Source: Naegleria gruberi
Taxonomy: Eukaryota
Direction: 5' to 3' (one strand)
Assembly (NCBI GenBank): GCA_000004985.1
Contig: GG738881.1
DNA length: 64,000 nucleotides
Positions 48,101 to 64,000 of this stretch are shown in pieces (the first letter of the stretch is position 1; the number at the start of each line of letters is the position of its first letter). The notes beneath the pieces are model-generated. The model was not told where the DNA came from and did not search any database. It worked only from the letters and a program-made list of their open reading frames with translations. Both the position numbers and the translations under genes were made by a program.

Positions 48101-51100
48101 NNNNNNNNNNNNNNNNNNNNNNNNNNNNNNNNNNNNNNNNNNNNNNNNNNNNNNNNNNNNNNNNNNNNNNNNNNNNNNNNNNNNNNNNNNNNNNNNNNNN
48201 NNNNNNNNNNNNNNNNNNNNNNNNNNNNNNNNNNNNNNNNNNNNNNNNNNNNNNNNNNNNNNNNNNNNNNNNNNNNNNNNNNNNNNNNNNNNNNNNNNNN
48301 NNNNNNNNNNNNNNNNNNNNNNNNNNNNNNNNNNNNNNNNNNNNNNNNNNNNNNNNNNNNNNNNNNNNNNNNNNNNNNNNNNNNNNNNNNNNNNNNNNNN
48401 NNNNNNNNNNNNNNNNNNNNNNNNNNNNNNNNNNNNNNNNNNNNNNNNNNNNNNNNNNNNNNNNNNNNNNNNNNNNNNNNNNNNNNNNNNNNNNNNNNNN
48501 NNNNNNNNNNNNNNNNNNNNNNNNNNNNNNNNNNNNNNNNNNNNNNNNNNNNNNNNNNNNNNNNNNNNNNNNNNNNNNNNNNNNNNNNNNNNNNNNNNNN
48601 NNNNNNNNNNNNNNNNNNNNNNNNNNNNNNNNNNNNNNNNNNNNNNNNNNNNNNNNNNNNNNNNNNNNNNNNNNNNNNNNNNNNNNNNNNNNNNNNNNNN
48701 NNNNNNNNNNNNNNNNNNNNNNNNNNNNNNNNNNNNNNNNNNNNNNNNNNNNNNNNNNNNNNNNNNNNNNNNNNNNNNNNNNNNNNNNNNNNNNNNNNNN
48801 NNNNNNNNNNNNNNNNNNNNNNNNNNNNNNNNNNNNNNNNNNNNNNNNNNNNNNNNNNNNNNNNNNNNNNNNNNNNNNNNNNNNNNNNNNNNNNNNNNNN
48901 NNNNNNNNNNNNNNNNNNNNNNNNNNNNNNNNNNNNNNNNNNNNNNNNNNNNNNNNNNNNNNNNNNNNNNNNNNNNNNNNNNNNNNNNNNNNNNNNNNNN
49001 NNNNNNNNNNNNNNNNNNNNNNNNNNNNNNNNNNNNNNNNNNNNNNNNNNNNNNNNNNNNNNNNNNNNNNNNNNNNNNNNNNNNNNNNNNNNNNNNNNNN
49101 NNNNNNNNNNNNNNNNNNNNNNNNNNNNNNNNNNNNNNNNNNNNNNNNNNNNNNNNNNNNNNNNNNNNNNNNNNNNNNNNNNNNNNNNNNNNNNNNNNNN
49201 NNNNNNNNNNNNNNNNNNNNNNNNNNNNNNNNNNNNNNNNNNNNNNNNNNNNNNNNNNNNNNNNNNNNNNNNNNNNNNNNNNNNNNNNNNNNNNNNNNNN
49301 NNNNNNNNNNNNNNNNNNNNNNNNNNNNNNNNNNNNNNNNNNNNNNNNNNNNNNNNNNNNNNNNNNNNNNNNNNNNNNNNNNNNNNNNNNNNNNNNNNNN
49401 NNNNNNNNNNNNNNNNNNNNNNNNNNNNNNNNNNNNNNNNNNNNNNNNNNNNNNNNNNNNNNNNNNNNNNNNNNNNNNNNNNNNNNNNNNNNNNNNNNNN
49501 NNNNNNNNNNNNNNNNNNNNNNNNNNNNNNNNNNNNNNNNNNNNNNNNNNNNNNNNNNNNNNNNNNNNNNNNNNNNNNNNNNNNNNNNNNNNNNNNNNNN
49601 NNNNNNNNNNNNNNNNNNNNNNNNNNNNNNNNNNNNNNNNNNNNNNNNNNNNNNNNNNNNNNNNNNNNNNNNNNNNNNNNNNNNNNNNNNNNNNNNNNNN
49701 NNNNNNNNNNNNNNNNNNNNNNNNNNNNNNNNNNNNNNNNNNNNNNNNNNNNNNNNNNNNNNNNNNNNNNNNNNNNNNNNNNNNNNNNNNNNNNNNNNNN
49801 NNNNNNNNNNNNNNNNNNNNNNNNNNNNNNNNNNNNNNNNNNNNNNNNNNNNNNNNNNNNNNNNNNNNNNNNNNNNNNNNNNNNNNNNNNNNNNNNNNNN
49901 NNNNNNNNNNNNNNNNNNNNNNNNNNNNNNNNNNNNNNNNNNNNNNNNNNNNNNNNNNNNNNNNNNNNNNNNNNNNNNNNNNNNNNNNNNNNNNNNNNNN
50001 NNNNNNNNNNNNNNNNNNNNNNNNNNNNNNNNNNNNNNNNNNNNNNNNNNNNNNNNNNNNNNNNNNNNNNNNNNNNNNNNNNNNNNNNNNNNNNNNNNNN
50101 NNNNNNNNNNNNNNNNNNNNNNNNNNNNNNNNNNNNNNNNNNNNNNNNNNNNNNNNNNNNNNNNNNNNNNNNNNNNNNNNNNNNNNNNNNNNNNNNNNNN
50201 NNNNNNNNNNNNNNNNNNNNNNNNNNNNNNNNNNNNNNNNNNNNNNNNNNNNNNNNNNNNNNNNNNNNNNNNNNNNNNNNNNNNNNNNNNNNNNNNNNNN
50301 NNNNNNNNNNNNNNNNNNNNNNNNNNNNNNNNNNNNNNNNNNNNNNNNNNNNNNNNNNNNNNNNNNNNNNNNNNNNNNNNNNNNNNNNNNNNNNNNNNNN
50401 NNNNNNNNNNNNNNNNNNNNNNNNNNNNNNNNNNNNNNNNNNNNNNNNNNNNNNNNNNNNNNNNNNNNNNNNNNNNNNNNNNNNNNNNNNNNNNNNNNNN
50501 NNNNNNNNNNNNNNNNNNNNNNNNNNNNNNNNNNNNNNNNNNNNNNNNNNNNNNNNNNNNNNNNNNNNNNNNNNNNNNNNNNNNNNNNNNNNNNNNNNNN
50601 NNNNNNNNNNNNNNNNNNNNNNNNNNNNNNNNNNNNNNNNNNNNNNNNNNNNNNNNNNNNNNNNNNNNNNNNNNNNNNNNNNNNNNNNNNNNNNNNNNNN
50701 NNNNNNNNNNNNNNNNNNNNNNNNNNNNNNNNNNNNNNNNNNNNNNNNNNNNNNNNNNNNNNNNNNNNNNNNNNNNNNNNNNNNNNNNNNNNNNNNNNNN
50801 NNNNNNNNNNNNNNNNNNNNNNNNNNNNNNNNNNNNNNNNNNNNNNNNNNNNNNNNNNNNNNNNNNNNNNNNNNNNNNNNNNNNNNNNNNNNNNNNNNNN
50901 NNNNNNNNNNNNNNNNNNNNNNNNNNNNNNNNNNNNNNNNNNNNNNNNNNNNNNNNNNNNNNNNNNNNNNNNNNNNNNNNNNNNNNNNNNNNNNNNNNNN
51001 NNNNNNNNNNNNNNNNNNNNNNNNNNNNNNNNNNNNNNNNNNNNNNNNNNNNNNNNNNNNNNNNNNNNNNNNNNNNNNNNNNNNNNNNNNNNNNNNNNNN

Positions 51101-54100
51101 NNNNNNNNNNNNNNNNNNNNNNNNNNNNNNNNNNNNNNNNNNNNNNNNNNNNNNNNNNNNNNNNNNNNNNNNNNNNNNNNNNNNNNNNNNNNNNNNNNNN
51201 NNNNNNNNNNNNNNNNNNNNNNNNNNNNNNNNNNNNNNNNNNNNNNNNNNNNNNNNNNNNNNNNNNNNNNNNNNNNNNNNNNNNNNNNNNNNNNNNNNNN
51301 NNNNNNNNNNNNNNNNNNNNNNNNNNNNNNNNNNNNNNNNNNNNNNNNNNNNNNNNNNNNNNNNNNNNNNNNNNNNNNNNNNNNNNNNNNNNNNNNNNNN
51401 NNNNNNNNNNNNNNNNNNNNNNNNNNNNNNNNNNNNNNNNNNNNNNNNNNNNNNNNNNNNNNNNNNNNNNNNNNNNNNNNNNNNNNNNNNNNNNNNNNNN
51501 NNNNNNNNNNNNNNNNNNNNNNNNNNNNNNNNNNNNNNNNNNNNNNNNNNNNNNNNNNNNNNNNNNNNNNNNNNNNNNNNNNNNNNNNNNNNNNNNNNNN
51601 NNNNNNNNNNNNNNNNNNNNNNNNNNNNNNNNNNNNNNNNNNNNNNNNNNNNNNNNNNNNNNNNNNNNNNNNNNNNNNNNNNNNNNNNNNNNNNNNNNNN
51701 NNNNNNNNNNNNNNNNNNNNNNNNNNNNNNNNNNNNNNNNNNNNNNNNNNNNNNNNNNNNNNNNNNNNNNNNNNNNNNNNNNNNNNNNNNNNNNNNNNNN
51801 NNNNNNNNNNNNNNNNNNNNNNNNNNNNNNNNNNNNNNNNNNNNNNNNNNNNNNNNNNNNNNNNNNNNNNNNNNNNNNNNNNNNNNNNNNNNNNNNNNNN
51901 NNNNNNNNNNNNNNNNNNNNNNNNNNNNNNNNNNNNNNNNNNNNNNNNNNNNNNNNNNNNNNNNNNNNNNNNNNNNNNNNNNNNNNNNNNNNNNNNNNNN
52001 NNNNNNNNNNNNNNNNNNNNNNNNNNNNNNNNNNNNNNNNNNNNNNNNNNNNNNNNNNNNNNNNNNNNNNNNNNNNNNNNNNNNNNNNNNNNNNNNNNNN
52101 NNNNNNNNNNNNNNNNNNNNNNNNNNNNNNNNNNNNNNNNNNNNNNNNNNNNNNNNNNNNNNNNNNNNNNNNNNNNNNNNNNNNNNNNNNNNNNNNNNNN
52201 NNNNNNNNNNNNNNNNNNNNNNNNNNNNNNNNNNNNNNNNNNNNNNNNNNNNNNNNNNNNNNNNNNNNNNNNNNNNNNNNNNNNNNNNNNNNNNNNNNNN
52301 NNNNNNNNNNNNNNNNNNNNNNNNNNNNNNNNNNNNNNNNNNNNNNNNNNNNNNNNNNNNNNNNNNNNNNNNNNNNNNNNNNNNNNNNNNNNNNNNNNNN
52401 NNNNNNNNNNNNNNNNNNNNNNNNNNNNNNNNNNNNNNNNNNNNNNNNNNNNNNNNNNNNNNNNNNNNNNNNNNNNNNNNNNNNNNNNNNNNNNNNNNNN
52501 NNNNNNNNNNNNNNNNNNNNNNNNNNNNNNNNNNNNNNNNNNNNNNNNNNNNNNNNNNNNNNNNNNNNNNNNNNNNNNNNNNNNNNNNNNNNNNNNNNNN
52601 NNNNNNNNNNNNNNNNNNNNNNNNNNNNNNNNNNNNNNNNNNNNNNNNNNNNNNNNNNNNNNNNNNNNNNNNNNNNNNNNNNNNNNNNNNNNNNNNNNNN
52701 NNNNNNNNNNNNNNNNNNNNNNNNNNNNNNNNNNNNNNNNNNNNNNNNNNNNNNNNNNNNNNNNNNNNNNNNNNNNNNNNNNNNNNNNNNNNNNNNNNNN
52801 NNNNNNNNNNNNNNNNNNNNNNNNNNNNNNNNNNNNNNNNNNNNNNNNNNNNNNNNNNNNNNNNNNNNNNNNNNNNNNNNNNNNNNNNNNNNNNNNNNNN
52901 NNNNNNNNNNNNNNNNNNNNNNNNNNNNNNNNNNNNNNNNNNNNNNNNNNNNNNNNNNNNNNNNNNNNNNNNNNNNNNNNNNNNNNNNNNNNNNNNNNNN
53001 NNNNNNNNNNNNNNNNNNNNNNNNNNNNNNNNNNNNNNNNNNNNNNNNNNNNNNNNNNNNNNNNNNNNNNNNNNNNNNNNNNNNNNNNNNNNNNNNNNNN
53101 NNNNNNNNNNNNNNNNNNNNNNNNNNNNNNNNNNNNNNNNNNNNNNNNNNNNNNNNNNNNNNNNNNNNNNNNNNNNNNNNNNNNNNNNNNNNNNNNNNNN
53201 NNNNNNNNNNNNNNNNNNNNNNNNNNNNNNNNNNNNNNNNNNNNNNNNNNNNNNNNNNNNNNNNNNNNNNNNNNNNNNNNNNNNNNNNNNNNNNNNNNNN
53301 NNNNNNNNNNNNNNNNNNNNNNNNNNNNNNNNNNNNNNNNNNNNNNNNNNNNNNNNNNNNNNNNNNNNNNNNNNNNNNNNNNNNNNNNNNNNNNNNNNNN
53401 NNNNNNNNNNNNNNNNNNNNNNNNNNNNNNNNNNNNNNNNNNNNNNNNNNNNNNNNNNNNNNNNNNNNNNNNNNNNNNNNNNNNNNNNNNNNNNNNNNNN
53501 NNNNNNNNNNNNNNNNNNNNNNNNNNNNNNNNNNNNNNNNNNNNNNNNNNNNNNNNNNNNNNNNNNNNNNNNNNNNNNNNNNNNNNNNNNNNNNNNNNNN
53601 NNNNNNNNNNNNNNNNNNNNNNNNNNNNNNNNNNNNNNNNNNNNNNNNNNNNNNNNNNNNNNNNNNNNNNNNNNNNNNNNNNNNNNNNNNNNNNNNNNNN
53701 NNNNNNNNNNNNNNNNNNNNNNNNNNNNNNNNNNNNNNNNNNNNNNNNNNNNNNNNNNNNNNNNNNNNNNNNNNNNNNNNNNNNNNNNNNNNNNNNNNNN
53801 NNNNNNNNNNNNNNNNNNNNNNNNNNNNNNNNNNNNNNNNNNNNNNNNNNNNNNNNNNNNNNNNNNNNNNNNNNNNNNNNNNNNNNNNNNNNNNNNNNNN
53901 NNNNNNNNNNNNNNNNNNNNNNNNNNNNNNNNNNNNNNNNNNNNNNNNNNNNNNNNNNNNNNNNNNNNNNNNNNNNNNNNNNNNNNNNNNNNNNNNNNNN
54001 NNNNNNNNNNNNNNNNNNNNNNNNNNNNNNNNNNNNNNNNNNNNNNNNNNNNNNNNNNNNNNNNNNNNNNNNNNNNNNNNNNNNNNNNNNNNNNNNNNNN

Positions 54101-54455
54101 NNNNNNNNNNNNNNNNNNNNNNNNNNNNNNNNNNNNNNNNNNNNNNNNNNNNNNNNNNNNNNNNNNNNNNNNNNNNNNNNNNNNNNNNNNNNNNNNNNNN
54201 NNNNNNNNNNNNNNNNNNNNNNNNNNNNNNNNNNNNNNNNNNNNNNNNNNNNNNNNNNNNNNNNNNNNNNNNNNNNNNNNNNNNNNNNNNNNNNNNNNNN
54301 NNNNNNNNNNNNNNNNNNNNNNNNNNNNNNNNNNNNNNNNNNNNNNNNNNNNNNNNNNNNNNNNNNNNNNNNNNNNNNNNNNNNNNNNNNNNNNNNNNNN
54401 NNNNNNNNNNNNNNNNNNNNNNNNNNNNNNNNNNNNNNNNNNNNNNNNNNNNNNN
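45137..54455. other. Assembly gap (9319 N), probably a collapsed repeat region upstream of the Cys-rich repeat gene.
   Basis: This is a run of N. The flanking sequence at 54456 onward is a high-identity tandem repeat. Confidence 0.9.
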
Positions 54456-55545
54456 GTTTGTCAAGGTAATTTCAAAGGAGTTGACTGTTCTCAATGTAAA
54501 TCAGGATGGAAAGGAGCTAATTGTGATGAACCAATTTGTGATTCAAAATGTAGAAAATGCTATTCACCAAACCAGTGCGCGCTATGTGACGGAAACTATT
54601 CTGGTGATAGGTGTGATAGTTGTACATCTGGATGGACTGGATCTGATTGTAATACTCCTGTTTGTGATTCAAAATGCACAACATGTGATTCACCAAATCA
54701 ATGTTCAGTTTGTAAAGGAAACTTTGAAGGATCTGACTGCTCCACATGCAAATCTGGATGGTCTGAATCTGATTGTAACACACCAGTTTGTGATTTGAAA
54801 TGCAAACAATGTGATTCTCCAAATCAATGCTCATCCTGTAATGGAAACTTTGCTGGATCAGACTGTTCAAGCTGTAAGTCTGGATGGACTGGATCTCTCT
54901 GTGATATTCCAATTTGTGATTCCAAATGTACTAATTGTTCTGCCCCATCCAAATGCTCAAAATGTCAAGGAAACTTCCAAGGTTTCGAATGTGATTCTTG
55001 TACAGATGGATGGAAAGGAACTGACTGTGACCAACCAATTTGTGATTCCAAATGTTCAGTTTGTGATTCTCCAAATCAGTGTAGAGTATGTAATGGTAAT
55101 TTTGAGGGATCTGACTGTTCCATTTGTACTACTGGCTGGAAAGGAGCTAATTGTGTAGTACCTATTTGTGACAGTAAGTGCACAACTTGTGATTCTCCAA
55201 ATCAATGTTCTGTTTGTCAAGGTAACTACAAAGGTGCTCAATGTGACAATTGTCAAGATGGTTGGACTGGCACTGATTGCAATAAGCCAATTTGTGACAG
55301 TAAGTGTACTACTTGTGATTCACCTGCTAAATGCTCAAAATGTCAAGGAAACTTCCAGGGATCTGATTGCTCCTCATGCAAATCAGGATGGAAGGGAGCT
55401 AATTGTGATGAACCAATTTGTGATTCAAAATGTTCTGAGTGCTCTGCTCCAAATCAATGTTCGACCTGTAGTGATAATTATGATGGTAACGACTGCTCTG
55501 GTTGTAAATCAGGATATAGTGGAACCAATTGCTCATTGAGTATTT
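54456..55545. repeat. Tandem DNA repeat array with a period of about 123 bp (41 codons), encoding the Cys-rich modules.
   Basis: Near-identical blocks (ccaatttgtgattcaaaatg...ggatggactgg...) recur every about 123 bp. Other-frame ORFs on both strands are by-products of the repeat. Confidence 0.6.
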
Positions 55546-57713
55546 GTTATGGGCTGACCAACCAAGATGCCAATGTTTGTTCTGGACACGGTTCTTGTGT
55601 ATTGCCAAGTGTTTGTAAATGTAATTCCAAATGGTTTGGAGATAATTGTGAATTAACTTCATGCTATGGTATTATGAAGAATGACACTGGTGTTTGTAGC
55701 AAACAAGGTTCTTGTATTGGCCCTGACGTTTGTTCATGTAAGACTGGTTACAAATCCAGTGCTGATTGTTCGGTTGTCTCATGTGAAAATTTGAATAGTT
55801 GTAGTTCTCATGGTTCTTGTGTTGGACCTAACTCTTGTACATGTAGTGCTGGTTGGAAATCATCTGGTGATTGTAGCTCTCCTTCATGTGAATTGGTTTC
55901 AAACTGTAATGCACGAGGATCATGTTCTGGACCTAATGTTTGTACATGTTCAGGTGGATTCTTTGGTAAAAAGTGTGAATTGGCAACATGCTTTGGAGTT
56001 GCTGGCGATTTGAATACAGGTTGTAGTGGAAATGGAGAGTGTTTTACAACCGATACTTGTTCTTGCAATGCTGGTTATTATGGAGCTAGGTGCGATTTTA
56101 AGGTTAACCTGGAAGCAACCAAGAAGGTTACAAACTTTAAGCAATTTTTCATTGAACCAACTGTTTACAATCCATCTGGGTTATCTATTGGCTATAAATG
56201 GTCTCAAGTTGGAGGACCATCAATTAATTTAGAATCAATTAGTGAGAATACAATTTCCAACCCCAAACTTGTGATTAGATCTGAAAATGGATTGACCAAG
56301 GGACAATCCTATACCTTGCTGTTAACTACCACTAGGTCTGATAATGTTATTATTACAAATAGTATAGTTTTGAATGTTAACATCGATCCAGTAATCGATT
56401 GGTTCAGCACTGTCAACCCATCAACTGGACAATCTGTAGGTATTGCTGGTGTTACTTCATTCAATGCAAGCATTGCTTCTGCAACTGATCCAGATGGTGA
56501 TTCCGATTCTTTGCAATATTCATTTGGTTATATAGTGGATGGAAAGAGATTTGTTTCAAAGGAATTTTCTTATTCAACCTCAACAATCTTCCGACTTCCT
56601 CTTCCAAGCAATAACTTGGCTGAAGTTTTCTACATTGCTAAAGATGATATGGGAGCAACAACCGAAGTTCAATCTGTAGTTGTTGTGAATAATCCATCTT
56701 CAAGTATGAATTCTTCTCAAATAGCCAAATTGGTTGACTCAATGTTGGAAAAACCATCAATTGACCAACTTTATTTCGCCACCTCATTGATCAAATCATC
56801 AAGTGATTCAGAATCTAGTATTGTCAAAAATAAGATTATTGATGCCCTCTACAATCAAACTGAGTCCAATCCTGAACTTGCTGTCGCAATTTTAAGTGAA
56901 TTGTCAAATAAGACTCTGGACAACTCGCACGGAAGCAAGGCTCTTAGAATGCTTGAAATTTTGTCAAATATTTCAGACAGTTATGAAACTATTTTACAAA
57001 CATCTTCCAAATTGATTAGTTACACCCAGTCAACTTCCGAAAATAGACAAGTTATGAATGCAATTTTGGAAAATATTTCATCATCTTTGGCTAAGAATAT
57101 GGCAACAGGTAGTATTATTAAGACTATTTCTAATAATTTGTTAAACATTATTATTAAGAACAATGTAGATCTCTTGAATATCACCTTGCCAAGTTCAATT
57201 GGTGTTAATGGATTGACTATTCCAACATCAAATCTCAAGAATGTGGTTTCAAATCACACAATTGCATTCAGTATTACTATTTTGCCATCCTCATCTTTAA
57301 GTTTCCTCTCTATTCCTGTTTCATCCTCAGTATATAAGATCAAGCTCTTCTGGGATAGTGGAGTAATGATAAATATTACTAAATTGAACACTCCATTTGA
57401 ATTTGAAATGACTGTTGTTGGTACCTCTAGTGGTGTCGAACCAGAATGTAGATATTTTGATGAAAGAACTAATACTTTGACAAAGGATGGTGTTGAAACC
57501 ATTGTTATTTCTCCGACTCGTGTTAAGTGCAGAGTTTATCAATTAGGAGATTTCACTACAACCTTAATTTCAAAGGCTACAAGCTCGCCTGCTCCAGAAA
57601 AATCAAAGGTACAACCAAAGATTTCTCAAAGAGCAAATACTGCATCCACTACTAGTCAATTTTCATTTATGATGATGTTGCTTTTTGTGATTGTTGTTGT
57701 TTTCATGTTGTAA
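54456..57713 (+). CDS. Large extracellular Cys-rich protein, 5'-partial. It has about 9 or more tandem 41-aa furin/laminin-EGF-like repeats, then 5 EGF-like modules, a Ser/Thr/Asn-rich domain and a hydrophobic C-terminal tail that may be a GPI signal or TM helix.
   Basis: The repeat unit is PICDSKCTTCDSPNQCSVCQGNFxGSDCSxCKSGWxGxDC. EGF-like modules are present (CYGLTNQDANVCSGHGSCVLPSVCKCNSKWFGDNCEL). The C-terminus is SQFSFMMMLLFVIVVVFML followed by a stop. Confidence 0.6.
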   Translation, partial: VCQGNFKGVDCSQCKSGWKGANCDEPICDSKCRKCYSPNQCALCDGNYSGDRCDSCTSGWTGSDCNTPVCDSKCTTCDSPNQCSVCKGNFEGSDCSTCKSGWSESDCNTPVCDLKCKQCDSPNQCSSCNGNFAGSDCSSCKSGWTGSLCDIPICDSKCTNCSAPSKCSKCQGNFQGFECDSCTDGWKGTDCDQPICDSKCSVCDSPNQCRVCNGNFEGSDCSICTTGWKGANCVVPICDSKCTTCDSPNQCSVCQGNYKGAQCDNCQDGWTGTDCNKPICDSKCTTCDSPAKCSKCQGNFQGSDCSSCKSGWKGANCDEPICDSKCSECSAPNQCSTCSDNYDGNDCSGCKSGYSGTNCSLSICYGLTNQDANVCSGHGSCVLPSVCKCNSKWFGDNCELTSCYGIMKNDTGVCSKQGSCIGPDVCSCKTGYKSSADCSVVSCENLNSCSSHGSCVGPNSCTCSAGWKSSGDCSSPSCELVSNCNARGSCSGPNVCTCSGGFFGKKCELATCFGVAGDLNTGCSGNGECFTTDTCSCNAGYYGARCDFKVNLEATKKVTNFKQFFIEPTVYNPSGLSIGYKWSQVGGPSINLESISENTISNPKLVIRSENGLTKGQSYTLLLTTTRSDNVIITNSIVLNVNIDPVIDWFSTVNPSTGQSVGIAGVTSFNASIASATDPDGDSDSLQYSFGYIVDGKRFVSKEFSYSTSTIFRLPLPSNNLAEVFYIAKDDMGATTEVQSVVVVNNPSSSMNSSQIAKLVDSMLEKPSIDQLYFATSLIKSSSDSESSIVKNKIIDALYNQTESNPELAVAILSELSNKTLDNSHGSKALRMLEILSNISDSYETILQTSSKLISYTQSTSENRQVMNAILENISSSLAKNMATGSIIKTISNNLLNIIIKNNVDLLNITLPSSIGVNGLTIPTSNLKNVVSNHTIAFSITILPSSSLSFLSIPVSSSVYKIKLFWDSGVMINITKLNTPFEFEMTVVGTSSGVEPECRYFDERTNTLTKDGVETIVISPTRVKCRVYQLGDFTTTLISKATSSPAPEKSKVQPKISQRANTASTTSQFSFMMMLLFVIVVVFML

Positions 57714-57838: not shown

Positions 57839-58879
57839 TAACGGCAAATAAAGCCTATTACAATATCTTTCCTTTTGAATACCATTTCATCACTACCAAG
57901 AGTTGTTTTACAAGGATCTTCGTGTTTACATGTACGTAATAAGTGCTGAATTTGATTGAAAACTTTGATAAAGTTACTCCTATTCACAAAATTCAAGATA
58001 AAAAATATGAACAAATTGTAAAAGGTACCTGGAAGGATGTTCTTCCTCTAATTCCTTTTTGAAAAGCAATATCTGCCATAAATGTCAGATTGACCACATA
58101 AACAATAACAAAAAGAAAAGGTCAAGCCATTATGACTCTCATCTCAAAACCTCGTTCTCCAGATGTCAACAAACAACGCTACAAGCCCACCATCTTCAAC
58201 ATGTATGGCGAGTAATAATGAAGAGTCAAGTCCAGGAAATACATCCTAACCAAAGATGAAACAATGTGGAAGAATTACTGGTTGGATAATTTATTGGCTG
58301 TTGGTGCTCTTTGGATGGCTAGTAATAACTGTTCGTGGATTATGAGAGCTTCACCTGTTAATCCAAATAATCCAGAAGATTATAGAAAGGATCTCTTTCT
58401 TGGAAGTAATCACACTGTGCATAAGGGATATCCTGCTATCATTATGGACTACATGGTTCGCTGTTGCTGCTAATTTGATTCTCTGTGAAATTTACATTAA
58501 TATGGTGGTAAGAAAGAAGGATGAAAAGAAAGTCCCAACAATTCATACTTTTCATGTAACTTCAGCTTCTCTTTGACAATAGGTTAACAAAACGAATAAT
58601 AAAAGGGTTAAAAAGACTACAGCACCACAGGTTCCCAAGTTGTCTCCAACCTCAGTACTGATGTGGCTCGACGATGCTTAACTTCTCAAATCGGACGGGA
58701 TGAGGTGCATTCATCGTGATATGGCCGTAGCCATTCAATTCCTTAATCTTTCCATTTTCAATCATATCAGAAATCAGTTGATTGAAAAATCTTGAGATTG
58801 GTTTCTTAGATTATTGAGCTCAATGATTTTGGCAAAAGATGGAATATATTATTTATTGTTAAAACAGTTTGTAGATTAT

Positions 58880-59704
58880 TTACAATTCATCCTTTGAACA
58901 TGTTGAAATACCAGTCAAATCAATATTTCCAATAAATTCTACATCAAGATGGCATTTGACAAGTCTTTCCTCTACCTTACTCCAATCAATAACTTTCCAA
59001 TAATCATTGACATAATTCAAACGTCTATTTTGGTGCTTCAAATAATAAGCATGCTCCCAAACATCAAGTGATAAGATTGGCTCCTCAATAGTCAGTTGCT
59101 TTGAATCAGCAGAATTTTCATTCAAATAAGCATTATCTTGATTGGCAAAACTCTTGATAACCAAATCAAATTGAGTTGGATTAGCAGTATTAACTCTCTT
59201 CAATAAAAAGACCCAACCAGATCCAAAAACTTTCATAGAAGCATCATTGAATTGAGCAATAAACTTTTCAACAGATCCAAAATGTTTAACCAAAGCTTGT
59301 TCAACTCTTGGAGTTGGCTTATTCTCACCAGAGGAAGGCTTCTTCAAAGAAGCAAAGAATAAATTATGATTCACAACACCACCTCCATTATTTCTAACTT
59401 GTTTTCTGGTAGCTTCATCACTTGTGGTGAGTAAATGTAAATTGGCAAGGAGAGTTTCAACTCTGCTACTCTTTTCAACGATCGGATCAGCCTTTAAAAC
59501 TCCAAGAGCAGCATTAATATTATTTACATAGGCTTGATGATGTCCGGAATGATGTACTTTCATGGTGGCTTCATCAATAACAGGTTCTAATTCATTGTAT
59601 GGATAGGACAAGGTTTGGAGGCTTACTTTGGTCAATTCAGAGTTGACACTGTAAATCAAGCCAATTACAATGCACAATACAACGAGCAGTGATTGTTTAA
59701 TCAT
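58880..59704 (-). CDS. Fe/Mn-superoxide dismutase with an N-terminal signal peptide and a C-terminal KDEL, predicted to be ER-lumenal.
   Basis: It has an ATG start and the N-terminus MIKQSLLVVLCIVIGLIYSVNS. The SOD motifs HHSGHHQAYVNN and DVWEHAYYL are present. A roughly 25-aa C-terminal extension ends ...TCSKDEL followed by a stop. Confidence 0.8.
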   Translation of the reverse strand: MIKQSLLVVLCIVIGLIYSVNSELTKVSLQTLSYPYNELEPVIDEATMKVHHSGHHQAYVNNINAALGVLKADPIVEKSSRVETLLANLHLLTTSDEATRKQVRNNGGGVVNHNLFFASLKKPSSGENKPTPRVEQALVKHFGSVEKFIAQFNDASMKVFGSGWVFLLKRVNTANPTQFDLVIKSFANQDNAYLNENSADSKQLTIEEPILSLDVWEHAYYLKHQNRRLNYVNDYWKVIDWSKVEERLVKCHLDVEFIGNIDLTGISTCSKDEL

Positions 59705-59861
59705 TTTTTTTAAATTGATTTTTTAAATATTAAATATATTTAAAATGATCATTACAATTTTATTAAAAAAGAATATTGCTCTTTGAATTTTAATATTAAT
59801 CTCAATAAAATTAATACTCAAATTGTGCAAATATTTTAAATAATAATAATATTTAAAAAAA

Positions 59862-60507
59862 ATGTCTCGACCAATTGTGTTTATGGAATTCAATGTCGCC
59901 AACAAGAAAGTTGGACGTGTAGAAATTGAATTGTTCTCCGATATTGTGCCAAAAACTGCTGAAAATTTCCGAGCATTGTGTACAGGTAGGTTGTGAGGAT
60001 GATTGCTCAGAACTTTACTCATGCTTGTATAACAATTTTGATACACTTTCCGATATTGCATTACATTGTGTGGATTCTCTTCTAATATTATTTGATAATT
60101 TTAAAGGCGAAAAGGGACAAAAAGGAGGAAAGGCATTGCATTATAAAAATTGTAAAGTGCACAGAATTGAACCAGGATTTTGCATTCAATCAGGAGATAT
60201 TTTGAAAGGAAATGGAACTGGAGGAAAATCAATCTATGATTCTGGTAAATTGGAAGATGAAAACTTCACTGTAAAACATAGTGGACCAGGAATTGTTTCA
60301 ATGGCTAATAGTGGACCAAATACAGCTTCAAGTCAATTCTTTTTCACAATGTCAGATGAAGCTTTACCTCAATTGGATGGAAAGCATGTTGCTTTTGGTA
60401 AAGTTATTTCAGGATATGATGTTTTGAAGAGTTTGGAACAATACGGAAACAGATTAGGAAATGTGGACAAGAAAGTTGTCATTTGTGATTGTGGTCAAGT
60501 TCAATAA
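59862..60507 (+). CDS. Cyclophilin-type peptidyl-prolyl cis-trans isomerase, two exons.
   Basis: The proposed structure is join(59862..59985,60107..60507). The intron is gtaggt..ttttaaag. The spliced product [12 protein letters not shown]...[14 protein letters not shown]...[26 protein letters not shown]...[17 protein letters not shown]...[10 protein letters not shown] is collinear with cyclophilin A. Confidence 0.85.
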
Positions 60508-60551: not shown

Positions 60552-61352
60552 TTAATCCTTTGGTGGAGAACCACTGGAACTTGATGAATCAGCAATATAT
60601 TGCAGCAAATTCTCTGAAGATGATACAGAAAGTGAATCCTCTTCCTCTCCCGAACTACTACTACTTGTCATTAAATTTATCATATCCAAGTCTTCATCCG
60701 AATCATCAAAATTTGGTTTGGCTGCTTTTGGTGGACTTTTTTTTGTTGGACCCTTTCTTCTTGTTCTCTTCTTTGGTTTTTCATCACTTTCATATTCAGG
60801 CTCCTCTGGTTCTTGTTCGGATGACTCGTCGGAAAAGTCCTCTTCCTCTTCTTGCTCATCTTCATAATCCTCATCATCTTCACTATCATGAAATCCTCTC
60901 TTTTTCCTCTTTTTTGGAGCACTTGAAGAATTGGAACCATTCTTCTTAGAGGTTTGTTTTTTAGGTTTTTGATCCAACGAAGTGGTTTCATAGGAATTGT
61001 CTTCCTCTTCATCTGAGAATTTATATTCCTCCTCTTCTTCCTCTCCAAATAGTGCATCTTCCGAATAGTCAACTATAGCTCTACTTCTTCCACCACTTGA
61101 TGCTGCAGCTGCAGCTCTTCTACTTCCTCTCATATTTAAACATCGTTCCAGATGAGGAGCATAGCCTGAATGGCCAATTTCTCTCTTACAATTTGCACAA
61201 ACAACGTGAGTCCGAGTAATAGGTAGATGGTTTGTATCAATTTCTGGAAAGACGGAAACTTGTTCCTGCAGTGAAAATTGTTTTTTAGCTACAGAAGGTT
61301 TTTCTGTTGTTCTGTTGTTGGAGAAGTACTCGTTTCCTTCTCTCCTCTCCAA
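60552..61352 (-). CDS. Sgf11/ATXN7L3-type zinc-finger protein with a long acidic/basic tail. A probable 5' exon lies in the upstream ORF (61285..61608), and the junction is unresolved.
   Basis: The zinc finger VVCANCKREIGHSGYAPHLERCL matches the Sgf11 C-x2-C-x11-H-x3-C finger (CxNCGR...APHLEKC). The upstream ORF encodes a helix (IQEHILDLLVKEILVEQ) like the Sgf11 N-terminal helix. The two ORFs are in different frames with no clean GT..AG junction found. Confidence 0.45.
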   Translation of the reverse strand: MERREGNEYFSNNRTTEKPSVAKKQFSLQEQVSVFPEIDTNHLPITRTHVVCANCKREIGHSGYAPHLERCLNMRGSRRAAAAASSGGRSRAIVDYSEDALFGEEEEEEYKFSDEEEDNSYETTSLDQKPKKQTSKKNGSNSSSAPKKRKKRGFHDSEDDEDYEDEQEEEEDFSDESSEQEPEEPEYESDEKPKKRTRRKGPTKKSPPKAAKPNFDDSDEDLDMINLMTSSSSSGEEEDSLSVSSSENLLQYIADSSSSSGSPPKD

Positions 61353-62587
61353 CCATTTTAATACATTGTTCCACCAGTATTTCTTTCACCAGTAAATCCA
61401 AAATATGTTCTTGTATTCTTGTTGTATGATTAAATGTTTTCTTGATGTTGTTTTTTGTTACTTGTTCCGAAGAGGAATTTTCCATAACATTCTGTTCATC
61501 AACATCTTCATGATCAATTACTATTACATCATCATCGTCTACTACATTTACTACATTTGAATAATTTTGTTGTTCTTCTTTCGCGAAACTTCTGAGTTTT
61601 TGTTGCATTTTTTGATGTAAAATTTTACAACAACCATATTGAATTTAATTTCCTCAAAGACCAAGAAGTGCAATCATAAAACAGGTAACACTTTTAATTC
61701 TTCTTGCCTTAATTACTAGGTAAAAGACTGTGCATCACTCTATCCTCATTCCTCAACGAAATACTGTAACGCTCTTAATCACATACATCCTCATTTCGTT
61801 TAGAAATTAAGCAACATTTGAGTGAAAAAGACTGGTTTGAAAAGTCGTGCCAATGATTCAAATTTGGAATTGCAATATACAGTTAGATATCCAAATCCAA
61901 AGTGGCTATTGTTATGTTTGAATTAGCAGGTGTCTGCCTCAACATTTTGAAGTGCACACTTCAAAGATTCTAATACTGTACACAAAAAGTTTCCCTTAGT
62001 AGATCTTGTTACCTTTCTTTTTTTGCAAAAACCTTTCTTCTTTAGTTGTCTTCCTTTTTGTAAAATGGTAAAAAATTAGATCCAACCAATCAAACGAATG
62101 GTTTAGAAATTACAATCAAATGAGCTCGCATAAAAAACTTGATTCTGACTTGGTGATGGAACAATGTACGATTTACAAGTTAAGGCTGCATGTTACCATC
62201 TTGATGATGAGGTGCTGACATTCTTACCAGATCCATTTTGTGAGGGTATTCGTTAGGGGGAATGACCCAATCATACTTCATCTTGTTCTGAATTGTTCAT
62301 GATCTTCCCTGCTTTTTTCCGTATGGTCCACAACCAAGTTGAATATCTTTTAATTGACAGCTGTCTACTATTACGAAAGCATTCCATCTTGTTGAATGGA
62401 TGCAAATATTAATCTTTCCAATTTATATTAAAAAATCAGAAGAGTTTGTCAAAGGGCCAACCTGCTCAACTTGCAACCATTCAGTAACTCATTGTATTAA
62501 ATTTGAACAATTTCTAGTATTGTAGGGCTCATTTCTTTCAATACAGTTGAAAAATCCCCTACTGCTTTAGATTTGCTATTAAACGAC

Positions 62588-63508
62588 ATGTTCATGATGC
62601 AACCTATGCCTGCTCATGCCACTGCGAGTGTGAGTACAATGAATGCTACACCAACCATTCTGGTCTCTTCACCTTTGGCTATTAAGAATATGAAGAGAGA
62701 CAGGTCCACTTCACATATGCAAACTTGCTGTATGAAACAACCACATGCTACTCTTCTCCAACCATCTACCTCTACCCCTGTGAAAACCTTCACTCACATC
62801 ACTCACCAAACTTGCAATCATTCTGATGGCAATATGATTGCACCAGAAATCTCAATCTCTTCATGCTCTAGTATCAATGATCATACATCCACAAGTACAT
62901 TGAGTATTTCTTCAGCTTCCTTATCTGGCAGTGAGTCAAGATCTGTAAATAACAAATCACCAACCTCTCCATCCCTTCTCCAAAGAACAACATCCAAGGG
63001 AAAGAGCAGATCACCAACTAGTCAGAATGATAATGAATCAAGCTCATCAGAAGATTATCCTTCAAATGATGATCGAATTATACGTTCATTCAATTCTTGC
63101 AAAATGAAATCTAGCGACCTTAAAAACAAGTTTACCACCTCAAAGAAGGACCAAGTTATCAGATGTAACAGAACATCTGGAAATCAGAGGAGTTTCATTG
63201 GCTATCAGGATATTAAAGGGTATTTCTTCCTTCCAGAAAATGAAGCAGCCAAACGTCTTGGATGCTCCAAGAGTAAACTGAAACGTATTAAGACTCGATT
63301 AAATATTGAACGTTGGCCATACAGAAGAATTCAATCGTTACTGAACCAAAAACAGAATGCGCTCTCAAAGAATGAAAATGTTGAAGATATCGAAATGGCC
63401 ATTCAATTTGTGATTGATTATCCAAATCTCATTACTAAATATTCTAACGAGGATATTGCATTAACTGCCTCCCGTTTCGATCGCATCAGGATCAGTAACC
63501 TCCTGTAA
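62588..63508 (+). CDS. RWP-RK domain putative transcription factor with a Ser/Thr-rich N-terminal region.
   Basis: The C-terminal segment ENEAAKRLGCSKSKLKRIKTRLNIERWPYRRIQSLL matches the RWP-RK consensus (..GxxxTxLKxxCRxxGIxRWPxRKIxSL). The first ATG is at 62588, because the track start is a TTG. Confidence 0.5.
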   Translation: MFMMQPMPAHATASVSTMNATPTILVSSPLAIKNMKRDRSTSHMQTCCMKQPHATLLQPSTSTPVKTFTHITHQTCNHSDGNMIAPEISISSCSSINDHTSTSTLSISSASLSGSESRSVNNKSPTSPSLLQRTTSKGKSRSPTSQNDNESSSSEDYPSNDDRIIRSFNSCKMKSSDLKNKFTTSKKDQVIRCNRTSGNQRSFIGYQDIKGYFFLPENEAAKRLGCSKSKLKRIKTRLNIERWPYRRIQSLLNQKQNALSKNENVEDIEMAIQFVIDYPNLITKYSNEDIALTASRFDRIRISNLL

Positions 63509-63709: not shown

Positions 63710-64000
63710 ATTATTGCTTTTGAGCTAGTTGCTGTTTTCTAAGCTCTCTCATCTCTTTGGCTCTTTTTGCTTGTTGATATTCATCGGCTGCAGCATTGTC
63801 AGATGTTGATACACTCACAAAACTGAATATAGAAGAAATGCTCTTTCTTCTATCGATGGCGTTATCATCCAAAGAACCCATTGATGATCGAACTAAAATT
63901 CTTCGTTTCTCTTCGCGAGTCCTATCAATTCTCTTTATAAGCTCTATAAATGCTGTATCAATTCCTTTCTTTTTAAAGGTTGCTGATGTTTCAATAAATG
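63710..64000 (-). CDS. 3' end of a gene that runs off the window. The product is hypothetical.
   Basis: The minus-strand frame is open from the window edge to a TAA at about 63710-63712. It encodes ...RRKSISSIFSFVSVSTSDNAAADEYQQAKRAKEMRELRKQQLAQKQ. Confidence 0.3.

What the first reader, a model, noticed from the sequence alone, without database searches (positions are those of the whole stretch)
58880..59704. Fe/Mn superoxide dismutase with a signal peptide and C-terminal KDEL
Fe/Mn-SODs are normally cytosolic, mitochondrial or plastidic. This one has a cleavable-looking hydrophobic N-terminus, all SOD metal-ligand motifs, and a roughly 25-residue C-terminal extension ending in SKDEL. This predicts retention in the ER lumen and an unusual compartment for superoxide detoxification.
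Basis: seen in the sequence. Interest (0 to 1): 0.55.

Follow-up and report, generated by a model that had tools for sequence, protein, structure and literature searches.

The report
ER-retained manganese superoxide dismutase of Naegleria
This Naegleria gruberi gene encodes an intact manganese-type superoxide dismutase with a secretory signal peptide and a conserved C-terminal KDEL tag, so it most likely works inside the endoplasmic reticulum; it is a non-animal example of a little-known enzyme class so far predicted only in aquatic animals.

Summary
Window 58880-59704 (minus strand) is one intronless 274-aa ORF of Naegleria gruberi (100% match to an unnamed "predicted protein"). It has both Fe/Mn-SOD Pfam domains, all four metal ligands, the Mn-type discriminator residues, a signal-peptide-like N-terminus with no arginine, and a 26-residue C-terminal extension ending in KDEL.

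KDEL is kept in all five heterolobosean orthologues despite synonymous codon changes, different stop codons and a 60-residue spacer insertion in one. It lies in the same exon as the SOD domain in N. fowleri, so it is not a missed-intron or frameshift artefact. Published analysis reports a canonical KDEL receptor in Naegleria.

The best explanation is a soluble Mn-SOD of the ER lumen, retrieved by the KDEL receptor. It is not unprecedented. Hewitt & Degnan 2022 predicted an ER Mn-SOD clade, SOD2X, in aquatic animals, but without noting K/HDEL tails. A later paper says SOD2X arose in the animal ancestor.

I find signal-peptide plus xDEL Mn-SODs in sponges, amphioxus, a lungfish, a brittle star, chytrid fungi and Heterolobosea, with looser xxEL tails in Balamuthia and Rhizaria. 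Shared signature residues and moderate tree support suggest one old eukaryotic lineage. Localisation and activity are untested in any organism.

Verdict: new member of a known, poorly characterised kind. Interest is moderate.

The parts
58880..59704 (-). Complete single-exon coding sequence of the KDEL-tailed Mn-SOD (274 codons plus TAA stop at 58880-58882)
   Evidence: ORF list and sequence. It is 100% identical to the N. gruberi predicted protein P0001. An in-frame stop lies 6 codons upstream of the ATG.
59639..59704 (-). Predicted cleavable signal peptide, residues 1-22 (MIKQ / SLLVVLCIVIGLIY / SVNS, cleavage after VNS)
   Evidence: Rule-based analysis gives n-region charge +1, a 16-residue uncharged h-region with mean KD 2.79, Val at -3 and Ser at -1, and no Arg. 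AF2 pLDDT is below 50 for residues 1-3 and 10-23. Equivalent N-termini occur in all orthologues. No SignalP run was available.
59345..59623 (-). Sod_Fe_N alpha-hairpin domain, residues 28-120, containing ligands His51 (59552-59554) and His113 (59366-59368), gateway residues His55 and Tyr59, and the Mn-type GG...F motif
   Evidence: Pfam PF00081, 9.6e-22. Invariant columns are listed. The codon for His51 was checked by hand.
58964..59314 (-). Sod_Fe_C domain, residues 131-247, containing Gln189-Asp190 (Mn-type NQD), ligands Asp214 (59063-59065) and His218 (59051-59053), and Glu217
   Evidence: Pfam PF02777, 4.5e-30. Invariant columns are listed. Foldseek matches solved Mn-SODs with TM 0.82-0.91 normalised to the target.
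58895..58960 (-). C-terminal extension, residues 249-270 (VKCHLDVEFIGNIDLTGISTCS), with the clade-specific DVEFIGNxxL motif and a Naegleria-specific Cys251/Cys269 pair
   Evidence: Alignment of five heterolobosean orthologues and Cys positions. AF2 pLDDT is 76 for residues 251-260 and falls to 55 and then 37 toward the C-terminus.
58883..58894 (-). KDEL ER-retrieval tetrapeptide (AAG GAT GAA TTG), immediately followed by the stop codon
   Evidence: Sequence. It is conserved with synonymous codon differences and different stop codons in N. fowleri (AAG GAT GAG CTT TGA) and in the P0005 contig (AAG GAT GAA CTT TAA). It is also present in N. lovaniensis and Willaertia magna.

Best explanation
The gene encodes a catalytically competent, manganese-type superoxide dismutase that resides as a soluble protein in the ER lumen.

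Proposed mechanism:
1. The 22-residue N-terminal signal peptide directs co-translational import through Sec61 and is cleaved after Val-Asn-Ser. This leaves a mature N-terminus (ELTKVSLQTLSYPY...) only three residues longer than that of mature E. coli SodA.
2. The protein folds as a normal Mn-SOD and acquires Mn in the early secretory pathway.
3. The flexible C-terminal tail presents KDEL to the canonical Naegleria KDEL receptor in the cis-Golgi. The receptor returns escaped molecules to the ER.
4. In the lumen the enzyme converts membrane-impermeant superoxide to O2 and H2O2. Possible sources are NOX-type oxidases, which Naegleria possesses, or leaky lumenal flavo-oxidases.

Shown here: gene integrity, domain content, ligand and Mn-signature conservation, signal-peptide-like N-terminus, and conservation of the KDEL tail across Heterolobosea.

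Inferred: signal-peptide cleavage, ER residence, the metal actually bound, the source of superoxide, and the fate of the H2O2.
For: - ORF and tail.
- Pfam domains.
- Closest solved relatives are bacterial-type Mn-SODs at 1e-41 to 1e-44, against 1e-28 to 1e-30 for mitochondrial SOD2. The fold match has TM 0.82-0.91.
- Ligands and the Mn discriminators (Gly108, Gly109, Phe116, Gln189, Asp190) are conserved (read against E. coli SodA numbering from memory).
- Signal-peptide features occur in all orthologues, with 0 Arg.
- A 19-residue hydropathy window peaks only at the N-terminus, so there is no second membrane segment.
- KDEL is present in N. gruberi, N. lovaniensis, N. fowleri, Willaertia magna and an environmental relative. 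The environmental relative has inserted about 60 residues of spacer yet keeps KDEL at the very end.
- Codon differences within KDEL are synonymous.
- KDEL is in the same exon as the domain in N. fowleri.
- Microsynteny with a Ras-like gene supports orthology.
- Naegleria has a canonical KDEL receptor (UniProt D2V4W2) and canonical K/HDEL motifs (PMC10903960).
- N. gruberi has NOX1-4-type oxidases (PMC3591440).
- Across 150 representatives of the nearest SOD clusters, about 30 combine a hydrophobic N-terminus with xDEL or xxEL. They include named animals and chytrids (xDEL) and amoebozoan and rhizarian proteins with looser xxEL tails.
Against: - No localisation, activity or metal-content data exist for this protein or for any member of the class. 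Published SOD2X localisations are DeepLoc predictions, and that paper's own conclusion also calls the clade "predominantly extracellular".
- Signal-peptide cleavage was judged only by rule (h-region length and the -3/-1 rule). SignalP and TargetP were not available. The h-regions of N. fowleri (20 aa) and P0005 (27 aa) are long enough to act as membrane anchors.
- The N. gruberi protein has no N-glycosylation sequon that would offer an easy lumenal marker.
- No transcript or peptide evidence could be tied to this gene. NF0015750, the only N. fowleri protein annotated as Mn-SOD and detected by proteomics, may be the orthologue, but this could not be verified.
- It is not known whether Mn is available in the ER lumen of Naegleria.
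Confidence: 0.7

Rival explanations
1. The hydrophobic N-terminus is an uncleaved signal anchor. The enzyme would then be a type II membrane protein tethered to the ER membrane with its catalytic domain in the lumen, as in the cyanobacterial membrane-bound Mn-SODs. KDEL would act only as a back-up.
For: The best sequence match among solved structures is the catalytic portion of the membrane-bound Anabaena Mn-SOD, 1gv3. Many cyanobacterial anchored Mn-SODs rank high in the profile search. H-regions are 19-27 residues in N. lovaniensis, N. fowleri, Willaertia and P0005.
Against: The N. gruberi h-region is only 16 residues and is followed by a good small-residue (-3,-1) site. A strictly conserved KDEL is the hallmark of soluble residents and would be largely redundant on an anchored protein. 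The compartment and the chemistry would be the same in either case.
Confidence: 0.1
2. The protein enters the secretory pathway but mainly acts beyond the ER, for example in phagosomes, lysosomes, the cell surface or the medium, as protection against oxidative bursts. KDEL would only slow or regulate its export.
For: DeepLoc placed several metazoan SOD2X proteins as extracellular or lysosomal, and the authors' conclusion calls the clade "predominantly extracellular". Some relatives lack a K/HDEL end, such as the Ephydatia-like P0306 (...RNSL) and Solemya P0122. Rice MSD1, a signal-peptide Mn-SOD, was seen in Golgi and plastids (PMC6680209).
Against: All five heterolobosean proteins end in exact KDEL, which the canonical Naegleria receptor should retrieve efficiently. 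KDEL is retained even after a 60-residue spacer insertion, which argues that retrieval is the selected function.
Confidence: 0.12
3. It is a mitochondrial or dually targeted Mn-SOD whose N-terminus is a presequence, and the KDEL is fortuitous.
For: Database records label some relatives "mitochondrial", for example UniRef names for the Branchiostoma protein. Mn-SODs are classically mitochondrial.
Against: There is no Arg in the first 40 residues of any of the six proteins examined. There is a long uncharged hydrophobic core instead of an amphipathic basic helix. KDEL is conserved in five species. The sequence is far closer to bacterial-type Mn-SODs than to mitochondrial SOD2. Human SOD2 falls outside the clade in the trees.
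Confidence: 0.03
4. It is an annotation or assembly artefact, or bacterial contamination: a bacterial periplasmic SOD gene or a frameshifted or mis-spliced 3' end.
For: The scaffold is a draft with long N-runs. The nearest non-heterolobosean sequences are bacterial-type and often carry their own signal peptides.
Against: The gene sits between a eukaryotic 5S rRNA gene and an intron-containing cyclophilin gene, with no N-run within 4 kb. The N. fowleri orthologue carries a spliceosomal intron. The reading frame and tail are conserved in five genomes or assemblies.
Confidence: 0.02

Closest known systems
Metazoan SOD2X (Hewitt & Degnan 2022, BMC Biol, PMC9524095; Sod2X in PMC11721785)
   Same: It is an Mn-SOD with an N-terminal signal peptide instead of a mitochondrial presequence, predicted mainly in the ER. 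Many members that I retrieved end in HDEL, KDEL or RDEL: Amphiura, Branchiostoma, Protopterus, Oscarella, Sycon and Chamberlinius. It shares Gly at the E. coli Lys29 position, F/Y/V in GGGxxNH, and LKHQN. In NJ trees built on the catalytic core, it groups in the same region as the Naegleria protein.
   Different: SOD2X was defined only for animals and was said to have been acquired in the metazoan ancestor. Those papers do not mention K/HDEL tails. The Naegleria clade has its own DVEFIGNxxL extension and three internal insertions. It is only about 40% identical to SOD2X proteins. Support for a joint clade is moderate (118/200 bootstraps), and competing HMMs are indecisive.
Mitochondrial Mn-SOD (SOD2)
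   Same: It has the same two-domain fold, the same four metal ligands and the same Mn-type discriminator residues.
   Different: SOD2 has an Arg-rich amphipathic presequence and no KDEL. It is much less similar in sequence (1e-28 to 1e-30, against 1e-41 to 1e-44 for bacterial-type enzymes). Human SOD2 lies outside the clade.
Bacterial exported and cyanobacterial membrane-anchored Mn-SODs (e.g. Anabaena SodA, PDB 1gv3)
   Same: These are the closest catalytic cores, at 42-47% identity. Many carry hydrophobic N-termini that place the enzyme on the non-cytoplasmic side of a membrane.
   Different: They are prokaryotic, have no KDEL and keep Lys29 and GGGH. The Naegleria gene is nuclear, and its N. 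fowleri orthologue has an intron.
Rice MSD1, a Golgi/plastid-type Mn-SOD (PMC6680209)
   Same: It is an Mn-SOD with a signal sequence that was shown experimentally to enter the endomembrane system.
   Different: It was localised to Golgi and plastids, not the ER. It is N-glycosylated, whereas the Naegleria protein has no sequon. According to the abstract it has no reported K/HDEL tail. Its sequence was not compared here.
Classical soluble ER residents (BiP, PDI, calreticulin) retrieved by the KDEL receptor
   Same: It has the same targeting logic: a cleavable signal peptide plus K/HDEL at the extreme C-terminus on a flexible tail. The receptor and the motif are canonical in Naegleria.
   Different: Those proteins are chaperones or oxidoreductases. 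A superoxide dismutase is not part of the textbook ER redox set, and the ER is described as poor in classical antioxidant enzymes (PMC12781119).

Membership tests
Fe/Mn superoxide dismutase family (Pfam PF00081 + PF02777) | Both the N-terminal alpha-hairpin domain and the C-terminal alpha/beta domain are present above the curated thresholds | tested here: met
   Sod_Fe_N scores 77.7 bits (cut-off 27) and Sod_Fe_C scores 104.1 bits (cut-off 20.9).
Fe/Mn superoxide dismutase family (Pfam PF00081 + PF02777) | Four metal ligands (His26, His81, Asp167, His171 in E. coli SodA numbering) plus gateway His30/Tyr34 and Glu170 | tested here: met
   His51, His113, Asp214, His218, His55, Tyr59 and Glu217 are invariant in the alignments.
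Fe/Mn superoxide dismutase family (Pfam PF00081 + PF02777) | SOD fold | tested here: met
   The AF2 model has pLDDT 80.8. Foldseek matches solved Mn-SODs with TM 0.82-0.91 normalised to the target and probability 1.00.
Mn-specific subclass of Fe/Mn-SODs | Sequence discriminators Gly76, Gly77, Phe84, Gln146, Asp147 (E. coli SodA numbering; Parker & Blake-type rules, recalled from memory) | tested here: met
   NNGGGVVNHNLFF gives Gly108, Gly109 and Phe116. ANQDN gives Gln189 and Asp190. The metal actually bound cannot be determined from sequence, and a cambialistic enzyme is not excluded.
Soluble ER-resident proteins retrieved by the KDEL receptor | N-terminal cleavable signal peptide | tested here: inconclusive
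   All rule-based features are met: a short basic n-region, a 16-residue h-region, VNS|E at -3/-1 and no Arg. No trained predictor (SignalP, TargetP) and no experimental cleavage data were available.
Soluble ER-resident proteins retrieved by the KDEL receptor | K/HDEL at the extreme C-terminus, conserved in orthologues | tested here: met
   KDEL followed by a stop codon occurs in five heterolobosean proteins, with synonymous codon variation.
Soluble ER-resident proteins retrieved by the KDEL receptor | No additional transmembrane segment | tested here: met
   The top five 19-residue hydropathy windows all lie at residues 1-25.
Soluble ER-resident proteins retrieved by the KDEL receptor | The organism has a KDEL receptor that reads K/HDEL | not tested
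   This is taken from the literature. The N. gruberi receptor D2V4W2 is described as canonical, with canonical K/HDEL ligands (PMC10903960). It was not re-examined here.
Soluble ER-resident proteins retrieved by the KDEL receptor | Steady-state localisation in the ER lumen | not testable with these tools
   This requires microscopy or fractionation.
SOD2X clade (metazoan ER/secretory Mn-SOD) | Mn-SOD carrying a signal peptide rather than a mitochondrial presequence | tested here: met
   the definition is in PMC11721785.
SOD2X clade (metazoan ER/secretory Mn-SOD) | Phylogenetic membership of the SOD2X clade | tested here: inconclusive
   NJ on the catalytic core only gives a heterolobosean sister group that is mostly xxEL-type in 181/200 bootstraps, and a joint clade in 118/200. 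The Gly29 plus non-His signature is shared: 15/24 xDEL sequences against 4/346 others, and at least three of those four (P0021, P0122, P0306) are themselves secretory-type; P0126 is unidentified. However, competing HMMs are nearly tied (-4 to -14 bits). Raw distances are slightly smaller to bacterial-type sequences, so long-branch attraction is possible. No maximum-likelihood tree could be run.
SOD2X clade (metazoan ER/secretory Mn-SOD) | Metazoan origin (as published) | tested here: not met
   The protein is from Naegleria gruberi, a heterolobosean. Under the published circumscription it is not a member. It is either a sister lineage or evidence that the circumscription is too narrow.
Mitochondrial SOD2 | Arg-rich amphipathic presequence and SOD2-type sequence | tested here: not met
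   There is no Arg in residues 1-40, and residues 1-22 are strongly hydrophobic (mean hydropathy 1.79). E-values to mitochondrial SOD2 chains are 1e-28 to 1e-30, against 1e-44 for bacterial-type chains. Human SOD2 lies outside the clade.

The most novel reading that the evidence does not exclude
The Naegleria KDEL-SOD, metazoan SOD2X, the chytrid RDEL-SODs, and the Balamuthia, rhizarian and environmental xxEL-SODs may be one ancient eukaryotic lineage of ER-lumenal Mn-SOD. It would have been present early in eukaryote evolution, lost repeatedly (yeast, most vertebrates, many model organisms), and therefore overlooked. If so, Sod2X was not acquired in the metazoan ancestor, and a dedicated superoxide defence or H2O2 source in the ER lumen would be an ancestral eukaryotic trait rather than an oddity.
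Probability: 0.4. Interest if true: 0.62.

Novelty: new member of a known kind. Interest (0 to 1): 0.46.

Why it matters
Superoxide does not cross membranes, so each compartment needs its own dismutase. The mammal-centred view is that the ER lumen lacks one and is poor in classical antioxidant enzymes (PMC12781119).

A cleanly KDEL-tagged, catalytically intact Mn-SOD that is conserved across Heterolobosea, including the pathogen N. fowleri, gives a simple test case for whether some eukaryotes run superoxide dismutation inside the ER. It also allows questions about what produces the superoxide there, whether the resulting H2O2 feeds oxidative protein folding, and how Mn reaches the lumen.

The wider survey suggests the class is spread over several eukaryotic supergroups, is mis-annotated as "mitochondrial" or "Mn-like", and is older than the animal origin currently published. 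A lungfish also carries one, although Sod2X is listed as lost in vertebrates.

Tried and rejected
- **Alternative genetic code.** I considered that TAA might code for an amino acid, as in ciliates, which would remove the KDEL end. I rejected this once the organism was identified as Naegleria gruberi and orthologues were seen to end with TGA or TAA after KDEL.
- **Missed 3' intron or frameshift.** Rejected.
- **Upstream start codon.** Rejected because of an in-frame TAA 6 codons upstream.
- **Bacterial promoter/terminator scan**. It is uninformative for a eukaryote.
- **Conserved neighbourhood suggesting function.** The neighbours are a 5S rRNA gene, a cyclophilin without a signal peptide, and Sgf11-like, RWP-RK and EGF-repeat proteins, which are unrelated. 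Only a Ras-like gene is a conserved neighbour.
- **Mapping N. fowleri proteomics entry NF0015750 ("manganese SOD") to the orthologue.** The supplements hold no sequence, and that ID is not in the stored parts.
- **Literature searches** for KDEL/HDEL Fe/Mn-SODs or an ER-resident SOD in protists found nothing beyond SOD2X and rice MSD1.
- **Competing HMMs** (SOD2X-trained against bacterial-trained) gave an intermediate, indecisive result.
- **A first large bootstrap run** timed out and was redone with a vectorised NJ.
Full report
**1. What is in the sequence**

Window 58880-59704 on the minus strand is a single open reading frame of 274 codons. It runs from ATG to TAA and ends ...TGISTCSKDEL. 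An in-frame TAA lies six codons upstream of the ATG, so the N-terminus cannot be longer. The next methionine is residue 48, inside the SOD domain.

Pfam places Sod_Fe_N at residues 28-120 and Sod_Fe_C at 131-247, both far above the curated thresholds. That leaves about 27 N-terminal residues and 26-27 C-terminal residues outside the fold.

The protein is 100% identical to a Naegleria gruberi "predicted protein" (P0001). The window is therefore N. gruberi nuclear DNA (about 34% GC), the genetic code is standard, and TAA is a real stop.

**2. Is it an intact enzyme, and of which metal type?**

The closest solved structures are bacterial-type Mn-SODs: Anabaena membrane-bound Mn-SOD 1gv3 at 2.5e-44, the Geobacillus enzyme and E. 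coli SodA. Mitochondrial SOD2 chains score only 1e-28 to 1e-30.

An AlphaFold model (mean pLDDT 80.8) superposes on solved Mn-SODs with TM 0.82-0.91 normalised to the target.

The four metal ligands (His51, His113, Asp214, His218), the gateway residues His55 and Tyr59, the second-sphere Gln189 and the dimer-bridging Glu217 are invariant in the alignments. The classical Mn-versus-Fe discriminators, in E. coli SodA numbering recalled from memory, are Gly76, Gly77, Phe84, Gln146 and Asp147. All are of the Mn type here: Gly108, Gly109, Phe116, Gln189 and Asp190.

So this is an Mn-type SOD, or at most a cambialistic one, with no sign of being a pseudo-enzyme.

**3. The N-terminus**

Residues 1-22 read MIKQ / SLLVVLCIVIGLIY / SVNS. 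This is one basic residue, then 16 uncharged residues with mean hydropathy 2.79, then a small-residue (-3,-1) site, VNS|E.

There is no arginine in the first 40 residues of this protein or of any of the five other xDEL proteins examined.

Cleavage after Ser22 would leave ELTKVSLQTLSYPY..., only three residues longer than mature E. coli SodA. AF2 confidence is below 50 for residues 1-3 and 10-23. No second hydrophobic segment exists.

This is what a eukaryotic signal peptide looks like and what a mitochondrial presequence does not. The judgement is rule-based, because no trained predictor was available. An uncleaved signal anchor cannot be excluded. The h-regions of some orthologues reach 19-27 residues, and cyanobacterial relatives are membrane-anchored.

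**4. The KDEL tail is real and under selection**

Orthologues exist in N. lovaniensis (...NKDEL), N. fowleri (...NKDEL), Willaertia magna (...RKDEL) and one environmental contig (P0005...TKDEL). They share the extension motif DVEFIGNxxL.

P0005 has inserted about 60 residues of Pro/Glu/Thr-rich spacer and still ends in KDEL. That is the behaviour expected of a signal that must sit at the extreme C-terminus.

At the DNA level the KDEL codons differ synonymously and the stop codons differ: AAG GAT GAA TTG TAA in N. gruberi, AAG GAT GAG CTT TGA in N. fowleri, and AAG GAT GAA CTT TAA in P0005.

The N. gruberi gene has no intron. The N. fowleri gene has one, directly after the GSGW motif in mid-gene, and the rest of the domain, the extension and KDEL-TGA are in one exon.

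A Ras-like gene flanks the SOD in N. fowleri and on the P0005 contig, and it is also present in this window at 63714-63998. This supports orthology.

The three Naegleria species additionally share a Cys pair in the extension (Cys251 and Cys269 in N. gruberi). It would be compatible with a disulfide in an oxidising lumen, but this is untested.

AF2 confidence is moderate over the DVEFIGN motif (76) and falls to 37 at KDEL, which is consistent with a flexible, receptor-accessible tail.

**5. Does Naegleria read KDEL?**

I did not test this. A published comparative analysis of KDEL receptors states that Naegleria has a "perfectly canonical" receptor (UniProt D2V4W2) and canonical K/HDEL motifs on its ER residents (PMC10903960).

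**6. Most likely mechanism**

- The protein is imported co-translationally.
- The signal peptide is cleaved.
- The protein folds and binds Mn.
- The KDEL receptor retrieves it from the cis-Golgi.
- It dismutates superoxide in the ER lumen.

Superoxide is membrane-impermeant, so the substrate must arise on the lumenal side. N. gruberi has NOX1-4-type NADPH oxidases (PMC3591440), which release superoxide on the non-cytosolic face. Lumenal flavo-oxidases are another possible source.

The targeting logic is well supported. The substrate source, the metal supply and the fate of the H2O2 are inferences.

The rivals are these:
- A membrane-anchored lumenal form, with the same compartment and chemistry.
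- A mainly post-ER or secreted role, with KDEL as a brake.
- Mitochondrial targeting.
- An artefact or contamination.

The last two are effectively excluded.

**7. Comparison with what is known**

The idea is not new. [quoted passage not shown] It was defined by phylogeny and DeepLoc prediction: 10 of 18 sequences were predicted as ER and others as extracellular or lysosomal. The paper does not contain the words KDEL or retention, and its conclusion calls the clade "predominantly extracellular".

No experimental localisation exists for the class. The only experimentally localised endomembrane Mn-SOD I found is rice MSD1, in Golgi and plastids (PMC6680209).

I found no paper on a KDEL-tailed SOD in Naegleria or any other protist. 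A 2025 review of ER redox biology states that knowledge of ER antioxidant systems is limited and that classical antioxidant enzymes are scarce there (PMC12781119).

**8. How wide is the class?**

I made a profile of the heterolobosean proteins plus the Amphiura protein and searched it against 1.84 billion cluster representatives. The heterolobosean clade has only two representatives (490 and 446 bits), followed by a gap to 234 bits.

About 30 of the best 150 representatives combine a hydrophobic N-terminus with a C-terminal xDEL or xxEL. The named ones are:

| Group | Organism | C-terminus |
|---|---|---|
| Cephalochordate | Branchiostoma | HDEL |
| Vertebrate (lungfish) | Protopterus annectens | HDEL |
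| Echinoderm | Amphiura | HDEL |
| Millipede | Chamberlinius | HDEL |
| Sponge | Oscarella | KDEL |
| Sponge | Sycon | RDEL |
| Jellyfish | Rhopilema | HEEL |
| Chytrid fungus | Spizellomyces | RDEL |
| Chytrid fungus | Quaeritorhiza | RDEL |
| Amoebozoan | Balamuthia mandrillaris | HSEL |
| Rhizarian | Lapot gusevi | KQEL |
| Foraminifer | Nonionella stella | RLEL |
| Marine protists (MMETSP transcriptome collection) | unnamed | HEEL |

There is also a large environmental group ending in KSEL or KAEL.

**9. One lineage or several?**

- **First tree.** I trimmed the targeting sequences and built NJ trees on about 195 core columns. In a 59-taxon tree the heteroloboseans (84% bootstrap) sit among the xxEL proteins. 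They are apart from named bacteria and from human SOD2, but the deep nodes have less than 60% support.
- **Larger tree.** With 107 mostly bacterial-type sequences added (144 taxa, 200 bootstraps), the heteroloboseans are monophyletic in 199 replicates. Their sister group is mostly xxEL-type in 181, against a background fraction of 0.24. A clade holding them plus at least 20 xxEL proteins with no more than 15% others appears in 118.
- **Exceptions inside the clade.** The three "other" sequences inside that clade also have signal-like N-termini and near-miss tails (...HTELR...KQDL, and one ending GKCVP).
- **Signature residues.** Gly replaces the near-universal Lys29 (HHxGHH) in 19 of 24 xDEL proteins, against 17 of 346 others. 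F, Y or V replaces His in GGGHxNH in 19 of 19 scorable xDEL proteins, whereas His occurs in 213 of 277 others. Both changes together occur in 15 of 24 xDEL proteins and in 4 of 346 others. Those four are a read-through model of the N. fowleri gene, a bivalve protein, an Ephydatia-type SOD2X and one unknown.
- **Evidence against a single lineage.** Competing HMMs are nearly tied for the heteroloboseans (-4 to -14 bits). Bacterial controls prefer the bacterial model by 74-128 bits and human SOD2 prefers it by 60. Raw distances from the heteroloboseans are slightly smaller to bacterial-type sequences (0.94) than to the xxEL group (1.04), so long-branch attraction is a live alternative.

I rate common ancestry at roughly 40-50%. 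It needs a proper maximum-likelihood analysis.

**10. Verdict**

It is best filed as a new, non-metazoan member of a recently predicted and still uncharacterised kind, the signal-peptide Mn-SOD of the ER or secretory pathway (SOD2X-like). It is not categorically new.

Its value has two parts:
- It is an unusually clean case: an exact KDEL conserved in five species, in an organism with a canonical receptor, and with an orthologue in the pathogen N. fowleri.
- Together with the chytrid, amoebozoan, rhizarian and lungfish proteins, it challenges the published statements that this class arose in the animal ancestor and is absent from vertebrates.

I score interest at 0.46.

Noticed in passing
window 58614-58732 (-): There is a complete 5S rRNA gene (Rfam RF00001, 105 bits, E 6.6e-23) about 150 bp downstream of the SOD stop codon, on the same strand.
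   Followed up: partly
window 59862-59985 and 60107-60507 (+): A cyclophilin-type peptidyl-prolyl isomerase gene (Pfam Pro_isomerase, 9.8e-31) has one GT..AG intron at 59986-60106. It has no signal peptide. It is transcribed divergently from the SOD across a 157-bp A/T-rich spacer (59705-59861).
   Followed up: partly
window 63714-63998 (-), cut by the window end: A Ras-domain gene fragment is 68% identical to the gene that lies next to the SOD orthologue on the P0005 contig (L002 2099-3319); that gene in turn matches the Ras-domain gene beside the SOD in N. fowleri (L001 8386-10423). This is loose conserved microsynteny across Heterolobosea.
   Followed up: partly
window 30199-30248, 36020-36168, 42409-43406, 45137-54455: There are four runs of N (assembly gaps), the largest 9.3 kb. 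The ORF lists across them are meaningless, and the gene at 54795-57713 probably starts inside the gap.
   Followed up: no
window 54795-57713 (+): A 972-aa Cys-rich protein has many EGF/teneurin-type repeats (Pfam EGF_TEN, 8.4e-21) and a hydrophobic C-terminal end. It is probably the 3' part of a larger surface protein truncated by the assembly gap.
   Followed up: no
window 60552-61352 (-) and 62573-63508 (+): One ORF is an acidic Sgf11-domain protein (SAGA deubiquitinase module, 1e-12). The other is an RWP-RK-domain putative transcription factor (6e-18).
   Followed up: no
L001 6001-7106 (N. fowleri VFQX01000004.1): The N. fowleri orthologue has a single intron of about 235 bp directly after the GSGW motif, which is absent from N. 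gruberi. Database protein P0021 is an unspliced read-through model of this gene.
   Followed up: yes
L002 630-1709 (ENA ERZ27315067 contig k141_1311346), protein P0005: An environmental heterolobosean-like orthologue has a spacer of about 60 residues, rich in Pro, Glu and Thr, between the conserved extension motif and KDEL. It also has two N-glycosylation sequons in that spacer.
   Followed up: partly
protein P0139 (Protopterus annectens XP_043931185.1): A lungfish Mn-SOD has a signal-like N-terminus and ends in HDEL, although the literature lists Sod2X as lost in vertebrates (PMC11721785).
   Followed up: partly
protein P0295 (554 aa, Logan assembly): This protein scores 487 bits against the SOD2X-type profile, roughly double a single domain. 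It has a hydrophobic N-terminus and may be a tandem two-SOD secretory protein.
   Followed up: no
proteins P0019, P0023, P0124, P0125, P0008, P0018, P0072 (metagenome-derived): This is an abundant environmental group of Mn-SODs with signal-like N-termini, a QNLPLPPLPY start to the mature protein, and C-termini KSEL or KAEL. The organism is unknown, and the group clusters with the eukaryotic xxEL proteins in the trees.
   Followed up: partly
N. fowleri proteomics entry NF0015750 (PMC7326272): This is the only N. fowleri protein annotated as "manganese SOD". It was detected in whole-cell proteomics (1.6-fold change under iron limitation). It may be the KDEL-SOD orthologue, because Naegleria has four SOD genes and the other three are annotated as Fe, Fe and Cu/Zn. 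The mapping could not be verified.
   Followed up: partly
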